This document shows positions 27,437 to 27,733 of a stretch of 64,000 nucleotides of DNA, piece after piece (within the stretch, counting starts at the first letter, position 1; each line of letters begins with the position of its first letter). A program made the translations under genes and the position numbers. The DNA is from Escherichia phage EP01: sequence record OM135583.1; one strand, written 5' to 3'. The notes under the pieces are model-generated. The model ran no database searches. It saw nothing but the letters and a program-made list of their open reading frames with translations, and was not told the origin of the DNA.

Positions 27437-27613
27437 TTATGCTTTCTGCTTACCAAAACGAGAAGCATCATCTCGAAGAACCGCACGTGCTCGGCGCATG
27501 ATCTTCTCAACAGTTTGATTGATACGAGAGTTCGACCCACGCTTGTAACCAGCGCGTTTAGAATCACCAACTTTCTTTTCAACTGCTTTCTTTGCTTTAG
27601 CTTGTTTTGCCAT
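27437..27613 (-). CDS. small basic protein, 58 aa (T4 30.9 position)
   Basis: Lys/Arg-rich ORF from ATG 27613; followed by a - strand terminator. Confidence 0.5.
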   Translation of the reverse strand: MAKQAKAKKAVEKKVGDSKRAGYKRGSNSRINQTVEKIMRRARAVLRDDASRFGKQKA

Positions 27614-27733
27614 TATAAATTCTCTTTTAAATGAAAATGCAGGACTTATTGGCATTGCCTGCGAAAGCCCTCAAAGGGGTACTTAGGTTTTGAATATTTA
27701 CCGACAGGATAACCATAAACCTCGTCAACATAA

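What the first reader, a model, noticed from the sequence alone, without database searches (positions are those of the whole stretch)
27614..27733. Structured 120-bp non-coding spacer between rIII and the downstream small basic ORF
The spacer has no ORF but two short inverted repeats (GCAGG…CCTGC and CCCT-CAA-AGGG), with no clear GTTTAC/-10 pair and no U-run terminator. It could be an RNA processing site or a small regulatory RNA; it is unusually long for this tightly packed early region.
Basis: seen in the sequence. Interest (0 to 1): 0.2.

Follow-up and report, generated by a model that had tools for sequence, protein, structure and literature searches.

The report
Conserved pseudoknot leader before T4 gene 30.9
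The 120-base gap between the phage genes rIII and 30.9 is not filler: it is the shortest version of a folded RNA leader (a pseudoknot plus two hairpins) kept in about a thousand T4-like phage genomes, matching no catalogued RNA family and of unknown function.

Summary
The window is a T4-like phage (Tequatrovirus). Its genes lie on the minus strand in the order 31, rIII, spacer, 30.9, strong terminator. Taken alone, the spacer folds no better than shuffled sequence (z about 0). It is also not ORF-free and not unusually long.

Comparison with relatives changes the picture. The rIII-30.9 spacer runs from 120 to 422 nt across Tevenvirinae. The window carries only the core that almost all spacer-bearing relatives share:
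- **Pseudoknot (27726-27681).** Both helices show compensatory changes, G.U pairs occur but A.C pairs do not, and it is better conserved than synonymous sites in the flanking genes.
- **E hairpin.** A small, sequence-conserved hairpin, CCC(C)/GGG.
- **F hairpin.** A hairpin always placed just before the 30.9 ribosome-binding site. Its stem changes between genera.

The element is single-copy, was found in 1,028 phage records, and has no Rfam family. The 34-codon ORF is broken in most relatives. No similar sequence was found in plasmids, E. coli genomes or representative bacterial genomes.

My best reading is a cis-acting structured leader controlling 30.9 expression (inferred, about 0.4). Rivals are a trans-acting decoy RNA (relatives carry a pseudo-ToxI antitoxin unit in the same spacer) and an mRNA stability or processing element.

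The parts
27681..27726 (-). Module A: an H-type pseudoknot, the universal core element of the rIII-30.9 leader.
   Evidence: A covariance model built from 28 distinct relatives scores 67.4 bits here (27675-27730) and finds no second copy in the 64-kb window. Covariation across the whole structure: 77.6% of cells paired against 64.9 +/- 1.6 in shuffles (0/500); covariation score 0.393 against 0.184 (0/500) and 0.04-0.18 for slid partners.
27720..27726 (-). S1 5' arm, GACGAGG (G27723 is bulged).
   Evidence: It pairs with 27708-27703. Four of six S1 pairs show changes on both sides, for example A-U / U-A / G-C at columns 8-30 and C-G / G-C / U-A at columns 9-29. Variants read: GGCGAGG/CCUGCC, GACGUGG/CCAGUC, GUCGUGG/CCAGAC.
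27709..27719 (-). Hairpin loop UUUAUGGUUAU. The invariant UU is taken as L1. The following bases form the S2 5' strand; in the window this is GGUU, 27714-27711.
   Evidence: In relatives, loop bases 3-7 pair with the 7-mer that follows the A-run: UUGUGAG/CUCACAA, UUGGUAG/CUACUAA, UUCAAGG/UCUUGGG, UUGUUGG/CCAACGG. The window and T4 types keep only GG/CC in register, plus U-A and U-A towards the junction (reading).
27703..27708 (-). S1 3' arm, CCUGUC.
   Evidence: See the S1 5' arm entry.
27688..27702 (-). L3: the A-rich connecting loop GGUAAAUAUUCAAAA.
   Evidence: It holds the most conserved unpaired bases of the element (CG, AA and AAA are invariant across 28 sequences). It is 15 nt long in most relatives and 16 in a few.
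27681..27687 (-). S2 3' strand, CCUAAGU.
   Evidence: Across 17 distinct S2 combinations, 5.47 of 7 positions pair against 4.70 +/- 0.20 when partners are shuffled (2/10,000). For the 13 non-T4 types the figures are 6.08 against 5.01 (0/10,000). The slide control peaks at register 0 (5.1 against 1.4-4.1).
27667..27680 (-).
   Evidence: The motif GUACCC..GGGCUUG is conserved across genera, sometimes moved to sit directly after the rIII stop. The stem is CCC/GGG in most relatives and CCUCU/AGAGG in L032. Evidence for it is mainly sequence conservation.
27639..27662 (-).
   Evidence: The stem becomes AACUGG/CCAGUU in Gelderlandvirus-type phages while the loop motif CAAUAAG is kept. Other genera have unrelated stems at the same position before the ribosome-binding site: GGGAGC/GCUCCC, GAGAGGU/ACCUCUC, UGAAAGGU/ACCUUUCA, GGCUCUA/UAGAGCU.
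27629..27638 (-). U-rich tract AUUUUCAUUU after the F hairpin.
   Evidence: Read directly from the sequence. Together with F it resembles a weak terminator or attenuator, but it does not pass the terminator scan (5-bp stem, 14-nt loop).
27608..27626 (-). 30.9 translation initiation region: SD-like AAGAGA (27626-27621), ATG 27613-27611, and the first codons.
   Evidence: Local folding pairs the F loop with this region: UGCCA 27654-27650 with UGGCA 27612-27608, and AUAAGU 27649-27644 with AUUUAU 27620-27615. The mean pairing probability of the SD window is 0.68 against 0.45 when the upstream sequence is shuffled. This is a prediction only.
27627..27731 (-). A non-conserved 34-codon ATG ORF overlapping the RNA element. 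I do not consider it a gene.
   Evidence: Listed. It has no Pfam or PHROG match. It is kept at 34 codons in T4, but is cut to 3-22 codons or lacks the ATG in sb3, KAW1E185, RB69, IME08, CF-SP2, PM2 and others.

Best explanation
The spacer is the minimal 'core' form of a structured RNA leader. It is transcribed on the gene (minus) strand as part of the 31-rIII-30.9 message and ends in the 30.9 ribosome-binding site.

The leader has three parts:
- An H-type pseudoknot: S1 is 6 bp with one bulge, L1 is UU, S2 is 4-5 bp, and L3 is an A-rich loop of 13-15 nt.
- The small E hairpin.
- The F hairpin, followed by a U-rich tract and the SD/ATG.

Shown here: the pseudoknot and a hairpin at the F position are conserved by selection on RNA pairing across Tevenvirinae.

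Inferred: the pseudoknot is a folded binding platform, for a protein (possibly the small basic gp30.9 itself) or for a ligand. The F/E region can refold or pair with the start region. Together they would set how much 30.9 is translated, or how much transcription reads through into it. This would resemble the pseudoknot-containing autoregulatory leaders of T4 gene 32 and of ribosomal-protein operons.
For: Position and distribution:
- The element is always between rIII and 30.9, in the sense orientation and in single copy. It was found in 1,028 phage records with one place each and in 769 records with the window's own sequence.
- It is absent from the loci that lack 30.9 (L038, L041, L043, L047-L049).

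Structure:
- Covariation supports both helices.
- G.U occurs in 17 S2 cells and A.C in none, which points to the sense RNA.

Conservation:
- The pseudoknot is about 90% identical between the window and CF-SP2, where rIII is 69% identical (48% at third codon positions) and 30.9 is 73%.
- Module A is in every spacer-bearing relative, a hairpin precedes the ribosome-binding site in each leader read through to its ATG, and E is in most (not PM2, and absent from its usual place in L033). The other modules come and go, so the window carries exactly the shared core.
- In L037 a different gene has replaced 30.9 after about 14 codons, yet the leader is kept.

Folding predictions:
- The F loop can pair with the 30.9 start region.
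- The E and F regions have an alternative fold of similar energy, -11.4 against -9.6 kcal/mol.
Against: - No experiment or RNA-end data were available. Regulation of 30.9 is an inference from position.
- The distance between the pseudoknot and the ribosome-binding site varies from about 65 to about 330 nt, because other modules are inserted. This argues against a tightly coupled switch.
- RB49-like phages (L040, L042) have a 30.9-like gene abutting rIII with no leader at all.
- In the window and T4 types, S2 is degenerate, with 3-4 of 7 pairs in register.
- The F-loop/start-region pairing and the alternative E/F fold have no covariation support.
- gp30.9 has no recognisable family or RNA-binding domain.
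Confidence: 0.4

Rival explanations
1. The pseudoknot is a trans-acting decoy RNA. In this view it is one of several independent structured RNA modules parked in this spacer that mimic RNA components of host defence systems, such as type III toxin-antitoxin antitoxins, and soak up a host nuclease or other RNA-binding protein.
For: - Relatives carry a clear single pseudo-ToxI unit in the same spacer, often directly abutting the pseudoknot (L018, L019, L033, L034, L037: alignment scores 48-57 against a shuffle maximum of about 30). The L034 copy matches toxI arrays next to toxN on 65 plasmids.
- Type III antitoxins are H-type pseudoknots with single-stranded tails. CptI has a one-base L1 and a long A-rich loop (PMC5086642). 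The pseudoknot here has the same outline and a similar size, about 46 nt.
- The modules shuffle in order and presence between lineages, as anti-defence cargo often does.
Against: - The element is single-copy, not a tandem array.
- The window sequence has no similarity to ToxI (score 16.5, below the shuffles).
- Eleven pseudoknot variants find nothing meaningful in 72,556 plasmids. A sb3 spacer finds nothing in 5,426 E. coli genomes. A tandem-motif scan of 185,579 representative genomes returns only low-complexity or unrelated repeats.
- It is the one module that is never lost, which is unlike accessory anti-defence cargo.
Confidence: 0.2
2. The spacer is an mRNA stability or processing element. 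Compact structures after rIII would act as barriers to 3'-exonucleases or define RNase cleavage sites. This would uncouple the lifetimes of the rIII and 30.9 segments, or yield a stable RNA derived from the rIII 3'-UTR.
For: - In the window the structures begin 7 nt after the rIII stop.
- F followed by a U-rich tract looks like a weak terminator or sRNA 3' end.
- The unit ends at a strong terminator after 30.9, at 27433-27412.
- rIII is expressed from early, middle and late promoters (PMC9409239), so differential decay would be useful.
Against: - The conserved unpaired bases in L3 and the conserved loops suggest specific recognition rather than a generic barrier.
- F fails the terminator criteria.
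- The modules are absent wherever 30.9 is absent, even though rIII is present.
- No RNA-end data were available.
Confidence: 0.2
3. The conservation acts at the DNA level: a promoter, a protein-binding inverted repeat, or a recombination site.
For: - A -10-like TATGAT/TATGTT sits just upstream of S1 in many relatives.
- The region is an indel and recombination hot spot: the flanks are 99% identical to T4 while the pseudoknot is about 84% identical, with several 1-nt indels.
Against: - No promoter-like site was found in the spacer.
- The last position of the -10-like hexamer is not conserved, and the motif is absent in L025, L027, L037 and L045.
- Loop-to-downstream (pseudoknot) covariation, and G.U without A.C, make sense only for a single strand of the sense polarity.
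Confidence: 0.07
4. The spacer encodes a 34-residue protein, or is a functionless scar left by a deletion.
For: - A 34-codon ATG ORF is present. T4 keeps the same length through two pairs of frame-restoring indels.
- The window lacks a 124-nt block that T4 has.
Against: - The ORF is truncated or absent in most relatives, including close ones (sb3 10 codons, KAW1E185 19, RB69 19, CF-SP2 22, PM2 16, L030 5, L026 ATG-TAG).
- It has no family match.
- Conservation above the level of synonymous sites, together with covariation, rules out a neutral scar.
Confidence: 0.04

Closest known systems
Autoregulatory pseudoknot leader of T4 gene 32 mRNA, and the pseudoknot operators of ribosomal-protein mRNAs such as rpsO/S15 (from my own knowledge of the literature; not tested here)
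   Same: An H-type pseudoknot sits in the 5' leader of a gene for a small nucleic-acid-binding-type protein, in the same phage family. In both cases an upstream structure is proposed to govern access to the ribosome-binding site.
   Different: There is no sequence similarity. Here, structured hairpins (and in relatives up to about 250 nt of other modules) lie between the pseudoknot and the ribosome-binding site, rather than an unstructured A/U-rich tract. No regulator is known.
Type III toxin-antitoxin RNA antitoxins (ToxI, CptI) and the phage 'pseudo-ToxI' mimic of PhiTE (PMC5086642, PMC5449768)
   Same: A compact H-type pseudoknot of about 36-46 nt with single-stranded A-rich parts. CptI has a very short L1 and a long A-rich loop. 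A genuine ToxI-like unit lies in the same spacer in relatives.
   Different: The window's element is single-copy, has no detectable similarity to ToxI or to any plasmid or bacterial repeat searched, has no toxin partner, and is universally retained rather than sporadic.
Pseudoknot riboswitch aptamers (preQ1-I/II, SAM-II, fluoride, guanidine-III)
   Same: A small H-type pseudoknot in a leader, with an A-rich loop and highly conserved unpaired bases, upstream of a terminator-like hairpin and a structured ribosome-binding site.
   Different: No Rfam riboswitch model matches, even at E <= 10 on the isolated 146 nt. The variable distance to the expression platform is atypical. No ligand is suggested by the function of the downstream gene, which is unknown.
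PeSL cassettes of T4-like phages: composite terminator/early-promoter motifs that mediate module shuffling (PMC4122927, PMC2839356)
   Same: A conserved non-coding intergenic element of T4-like genomes lying at a site of frequent insertion, deletion and module exchange.
   Different: There is no early promoter and no terminator in the spacer. The element is single-copy rather than dispersed. Its conservation is of RNA pairing, including a pseudoknot.

Membership tests
Type III TA antitoxin RNA (ToxI/CptI/TenpI) or phage pseudo-ToxI | Tandem direct repeats of a unit of about 34-45 nt | tested here: not met
   There is one copy in the 64-kb window and one place per record in 1,028 phage records.
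Type III TA antitoxin RNA (ToxI/CptI/TenpI) or phage pseudo-ToxI | Sequence similarity to a bacterial antitoxin repeat that lies next to a toxN/cptN/tenpN gene | tested here: not met
   The window spacer scores 16.5 against ToxI, below the shuffles. No meaningful plasmid hits, no E. coli genome hits, and no tandem arrays in GTDB representatives beyond low-complexity or unrelated repeats.
Type III TA antitoxin RNA (ToxI/CptI/TenpI) or phage pseudo-ToxI | H-type pseudoknot fold with single-stranded tails | tested here: met
   Both helices are supported by covariation. The fold description of the family comes from PMC5086642.
Type III TA antitoxin RNA (ToxI/CptI/TenpI) or phage pseudo-ToxI | Binds and inhibits a cognate endoribonuclease toxin | not testable with these tools
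   This needs co-expression or rescue assays.
Known Rfam families, including pseudoknot riboswitches (preQ1-I/II/III, SAM-II/V, fluoride, guanidine-III) and DUF2815 RNA | Covariance-model score at or above the family's gathering threshold | tested here: not met
   No hit in the pseudoknot at E <= 10. The best hit in the spacer is DUF2815 RNA at 14.6 bits against a gathering score of 41.2 (E 2.5) over the F/ribosome-binding-site part, and it was not reproduced in CF-SP2. Relatives' spacers give nothing at E <= 0.1.
Gene-32-type autoregulatory leader | Pseudoknot in the leader upstream of the regulated gene | tested here: met
   The pseudoknot is 67 nt upstream of the 30.9 ATG in the window, and is always upstream of 30.9 in relatives.
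Gene-32-type autoregulatory leader | Unstructured A/U-rich tract from the pseudoknot to the ribosome-binding site, allowing cooperative protein binding | tested here: not met
   The interval contains the E and F hairpins, and in relatives further structured modules.
Gene-32-type autoregulatory leader | Translation repressed by the encoded protein binding its own leader | not testable with these tools
   gp30.9 has no recognisable domain. Binding assays are required.
PeSL (promoter-early stem-loop) cassette | Composite terminator stem-loop plus early promoter, in multiple copies in hyperplastic regions | tested here: not met
   No promoter-like site and no minus-strand terminator in the spacer. 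It is single-copy. A terminator-plus-promoter pair does lie further downstream, after 30.9 (27433-27412 and 27382-27354).
Intrinsic terminator / attenuator | G+C-rich stem of at least 5 bp, a loop of 3-8 nt, and a U-run immediately after | tested here: not met
   F has a 5-bp stem but a 14-nt loop, and it was not reported by the scan. The U-rich tract is present.
Small protein gene | Reading frame conserved among relatives | tested here: not met
   The frame is broken in most relatives, although it is kept in T4.

The most novel reading that the evidence does not exclude
The rIII-30.9 spacer of T-even phages would be an 'RNA island': a transcribed slot that collects independent structured RNAs acting against host RNA-based immunity. 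It already demonstrably holds a pseudo-ToxI antitoxin unit in many lineages. The universally retained pseudoknot, which is all this window keeps, would be a decoy or inhibitor for a still unidentified host RNA-binding defence or decay factor. Alternatively, it would be a new pseudoknot riboswitch class.
Probability: 0.2. Interest if true: 0.85.

Novelty: new member of a known kind. Interest (0 to 1): 0.55.

Why it matters
T4 is among the most thoroughly studied phages. Yet this element is not annotated in any record inspected, matches no Rfam family, and none of its characteristic sequences appears in the searchable literature.

A single-copy pseudoknot under purifying selection across at least eight named genera that infect Escherichia, Klebsiella, Enterobacter, Salmonella, Yersinia, Serratia and Pectobacterium implies an unrecognised layer of post-transcriptional control or host interaction. 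That layer is tied to a conserved gene of unknown function, 30.9.

The window's phage carries only the core and none of the accessory modules. It is therefore a natural minimal construct for dissecting the element.

Tried and rejected
- **Single-sequence folding, both strands.** No signal.
- **Promoter and terminator scan.** Nothing relevant in the spacer. The only hit there is the E hairpin read on the opposite strand.
- **Rfam, six searches at gathering-free thresholds.** Only sub-threshold noise. The DUF2815 RNA resemblance (14.6 bits) looked suggestive but was not reproduced in CF-SP2 or L022, so I dropped it.
- **Coding hypothesis.** Rejected because the frame is not conserved and there is no family match.
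- **IMG/VR pattern scan.** My pattern had one N too many for the main variant. It recovered only T4-type copies plus chance hits, so it was uninformative.
- **Search for a bacterial counterpart of the pseudoknot.** Plasmids, E. coli genomes and tandem arrays in GTDB representatives were all negative. The hits were 8-nt satellite-like repeats, an unrelated 51-nt repeat in Cytobacillus, and A/T-rich repeats in Clostridium.
- **gp30.9 against Pfam, NCBIfam, PADLOC and PDB.** Nothing significant; weak SlmA matches at E >= 0.1 were ignored.
- **Literature searches** for T4 promoters, transcripts or sRNAs in this interval found nothing specific. Miller et al. 2003 and Guegler & Laub 2021 were not held.
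- **RNAalifold's alternative E/F pairing and the SD-sequestering helix.** Both are energetically plausible but lack covariation, so I keep them only as hypotheses.

Full report
**Context.** The window is a T4-like phage. The 801 bases around the finding are 100% identical to Salmonella phage Lv5cm and 95-99% identical to about 500 Tequatrovirus records. The genes run on the minus strand: gene 31 (28465-28130), rIII (27982-27734), the spacer (27733-27614), 30.9 (27613-27437, a 58-residue basic protein), then a strong terminator (27433-27412) and an early-promoter-like site (27382-27354).

**Checking the observation.** Both inverted repeats are present. They are GCAGG/CCUGC (27662-27658 / 27643-27639) and CCCU/AGGG (within 27680-27667). 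The scan finds no sigma-70-type promoter and no minus-strand terminator in the spacer.

Three statements do not hold.
- There is an ORF of 34 ATG-initiated codons at 27731-27627.
- The sequence on its own is not detectably structured. The MFE is -21.7 kcal/mol against -21.66 +/- 3.34 for dinucleotide shuffles (z = -0.01). The other strand gives z = -0.17.
- 120 nt is not unusually long. The adjacent gaps are 147 and 110 nt, and this is the shortest known form of the spacer.

**The spacer is modular and the window holds its core.** T4 itself has 244 nt here, Shigella phage sb3 has 395 nt, and other Tevenvirinae have 120-422 nt. Relative to T4, the window lacks a 124-nt block immediately after the rIII stop.

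I fetched 42 loci through rIII, plus RB69, IME08, CF-SP2 and PM2. Reading all the spacers side by side shows a set of recurring modules whose order and presence differ between lineages. Module A is in every spacer-bearing relative. A hairpin immediately before the 30.9 ribosome-binding site ('F') is in each leader read through to its ATG. The small motif GUACCC..GGGCUUG ('E') is in most of them, but not in PM2 and not at its usual place in L033. The window contains A, E, F and the ribosome-binding site, and nothing else.

**Module A is a pseudoknot.** Its 5' part is a hairpin, GAC[G]AGG - 11 nt - CCUGUC (27726-27703).
- *S1.* Relatives show GGCGAGG/CCUGCC, GACGUGG/CCAGUC, GUCGUGG/CCAGAC, GUC[G]UAG/CUAGAC and others.
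- *S2.* The first loop bases pair with the 7-mer that follows the A-rich tail: UUGUGAG/CUCACAA, UUGGUAG/CUACUAA, UUCAAGG/UCUUGGG, UUGUUGG/CCAACGG, GAUGG/CCAUC.
- *Whole structure.* On a MAFFT alignment of 28 distinct sequences, which leaves a few rows misaligned, 77.6% of cells pair against 64.9 +/- 1.6 in shuffles (0/500). The covariation score is 0.393 against 0.184 (0/500) and against 0.04-0.18 for partners slid by 1-3 columns. Four of six S1 pairs and four of seven S2 pairs change on both sides.
- *S2 with the register corrected.* The 17 distinct S2 combinations pair at 5.47 of 7 positions against 4.70 +/- 0.20 (2/10,000). The 13 non-T4 types pair at 6.08 against 5.01 (0/10,000). The slide control peaks at the proposed register.

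The invariant UU at the start of the loop is best read as L1. That leaves S2 at 5 bp and an A-rich L3 of 13-15 nt. This assignment is my inference from pseudoknot geometry.

In the window and T4 types S2 is weaker. GGUU (27714-27711) pairs with AACC (27689-27686), and a further UUUA/UAAG pairing is possible across a bulged U (my reading).

**Strand, selection and distribution.**
- G.U pairs are frequent in S2 (17 cells) and A.C pairs are absent, so the sense RNA is the selected strand.
- Between the window and CF-SP2 the pseudoknot is about 90% identical, while rIII is 69% (48% at third codon positions) and 30.9 is 73%. Against PM2 the figures are about 77% and 67%.
- The window's 120 nt find 769 phage records. 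A query of eleven pseudoknot variants finds 1,028 records, always one place each and mostly unannotated.
- The records span Tequatrovirus, Mosigvirus (RB69), Dhakavirus (IME08), Gelderlandvirus (S16, CF-SP2), Mosugukvirus (PM2), and phages of Klebsiella, Enterobacter, Yersinia (phiR1-RT) and Serratia (CHI14).
- A covariance model finds one copy in the window (67.4 bits). It finds none in the loci that lack the element.

**The 3' half.**
- *F stem and loop.* The F stem is GCAGG/CCUGC in T4, RB69 and Dhaka types and AACUGG/CCAGUU in Gelderland types. The loop motif CAAUAAG is constant between them. Other genera have unrelated G+C-rich stems at the same place.
- *E.* This hairpin is conserved mainly in sequence.
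- *Alternative E/F fold.* RNAalifold prefers AGGGCUUG/UAAGUCCU enclosing GGC/GCC. In the window this fold scores -11.4 kcal/mol against -9.6 for E plus F, but it has no compensatory changes.
- *Pairing with the start region.* Local folding pairs the F loop with the 30.9 start region (UGCCA/UGGCA and AUAAGU/AUUUAU). The SD-window pairing probability is 0.68 against 0.45 for shuffled upstream sequence.

These last two features are compatible with a switchable, ribosome-binding-site-occluding leader, but they remain predictions.

**Not coding.**
- The 34-codon ORF has no Pfam or PHROG match.
- Oddly, T4 keeps 34 codons through two pairs of frame-restoring indels.
- The frame ends after 10 codons in sb3, 19 in KAW1E185, RB69 and IME08, 22 in CF-SP2, 16 in PM2 and L024, 5 in L030 and 3 in L031. 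In L026 the sequence reads ATG-TAG.
- Several lineages have no ATG at all.

**Comparison with known systems.** No Rfam family reaches threshold anywhere in the spacer or in relatives' spacers.

Relatives, but not the window, carry a single ToxI-like unit in this spacer. The ToxI repeat is AGGTGATTTGCTACCTTTAAGTGCAGCTAGAAATTC (PMC8610362).
- L034 has GGTGATTTGCTACC-AAAGTGCAGCTAGAAAAT.
- L019 and L037 have AGGTGATTCGCTACC-TTAAGTGCGGCTAGAAA, which includes a U-A to C-G double change.
- The alignment scores are 48-57 against a shuffle maximum of about 30.
- The L034 copy hits toxI arrays next to toxN on 65 small plasmids.
- T4's own unit, at the same position, is a diverged and borderline version.

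Type III antitoxins are H-type pseudoknots, and CptI has a one-base L1 and a long A-rich loop (PMC5086642). I therefore tested whether the window's pseudoknot is another antitoxin mimic. It is single-copy and has no ToxI similarity. I found no counterpart in plasmids, E. coli genomes or tandem arrays of representative genomes. Membership is therefore not supported. A decoy-like mode of action is not excluded.

**Mechanism.**
- *Shown:* a conserved sense-strand pseudoknot, plus a positionally conserved hairpin, directly upstream of the 30.9 ribosome-binding site.
- *Inferred:* these form a cis-acting leader that sets 30.9 expression. The pseudoknot would serve as a binding platform and the E/F/ribosome-binding-site region as the responsive part. 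This would resemble the gene 32 and ribosomal-protein leaders (my own knowledge). I give it about 0.4.
- *Main rivals:* a trans-acting decoy RNA (0.2) and an mRNA stability or processing element (0.2).
- *Minor rivals:* a DNA-level function (0.07), and a peptide gene or neutral scar (0.04).

**Verdict.** The spacer matters because it is the minimal core of a widely conserved, uncatalogued structured RNA whose centrepiece is a pseudoknot. I class it as a new member of a known kind (structured phage mRNA leader or ncRNA motif), with function still to be determined.

Noticed in passing
Relatives only: L034 about 1833-1865, L019 about 1748-1783, L018, L033, L037; T4 = L001 minus strand just after the rIII stop (about 3280-3250): A single ToxI-like (type III antitoxin) unit lies in the rIII-30.9 spacer of many Tevenvirinae. 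It is near-identical to plasmid toxI in L034 and L035, carries compensatory changes in L019 and L037, and is diverged and borderline in T4 and CF-SP2. The window phage has lost it. I found no description of it in the literature I could search.
   Followed up: partly
Relatives only: e.g. L002 (sb3) minus strand within 612-1006; L017, L018, L020, L024, L026, L028-L035, L039, L044: A conserved RNA module of about 136 nt (GCGGCAAGUGCAUGCUACC...GCUAACGGUGUGCAACAGAUAAGAG) sits in the same spacer. RNAalifold predicts 38 pairs, 16 of them with compensatory changes. It has no Rfam match and no plasmid or E. coli match.
   Followed up: partly
T4 L001 minus strand about 3245-3165 (the 124-nt block absent from the window); also RB69 and IME08: Two further conserved modules appear in relatives. 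One contains the hairpin UAAUGAUU-UGCG-AAUCAUUA, which covaries to UAUCGAUU/AAUCGGUA in L023. The other is a CAGAAAAAGGUUAUCUG hairpin (CAGC/GCUG in L013 and L025). Both are nearly identical across T4, RB69 and IME08 despite diverged flanks.
   Followed up: no
window 27433-27412 (-) and 27382-27354 (-): A strong UUCG-loop terminator lies right after 30.9, followed by an early-promoter-like site (TTTACA-17-TAGTAT with an upstream TG) before 30.8. This is a PeSL-like terminator/promoter pair and it marks the end of the 31-rIII-30.9 unit.
   Followed up: no
window 27614-27621 (+): TATAAATT on the plus strand overlaps the 30.9 start and matches the T4 late-promoter core TATAAATA at 7 of 8 positions. 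It points antisense into the spacer and rIII. It is not conserved in IME08 or CF-SP2, so it is probably chance.
   Followed up: partly
L037 about 1749-2150: In this relative, 30.9 is replaced after about 14 codons by an unrelated ORF, while the pseudoknot, the ToxI-like unit, the hairpin and the ribosome-binding site are retained. The leader therefore behaves as a portable expression cassette.
   Followed up: no
window 27627-27731 (-) versus T4 L001 3055-3159 (-): The non-conserved 34-codon ORF keeps its length and frame between the window and T4 through two pairs of compensating 1-nt indels, even though it is broken in other close relatives. This is unexplained.
   Followed up: partly
window 27681-27726 versus T4: The flanking genes are about 99% identical to T4, but the pseudoknot segment is only about 84% identical in the pairwise alignment, which began one base inside S1. 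There are four 1-nt indels across the spacer core. This suggests the spacer is exchanged or mutated independently of its flanks.
   Followed up: no
L118 200-460 (Cytobacillus sp. S13-E01): A chance hit of the tandem-motif scan is a 51-nt tandem repeat (CGGTAACCAAAAGAGCAATCTGATGCCCGAAATCGCGTAAAAAGTAAAAAA). It is unrelated to the phage element, and I did not examine its neighbouring genes.
   Followed up: no
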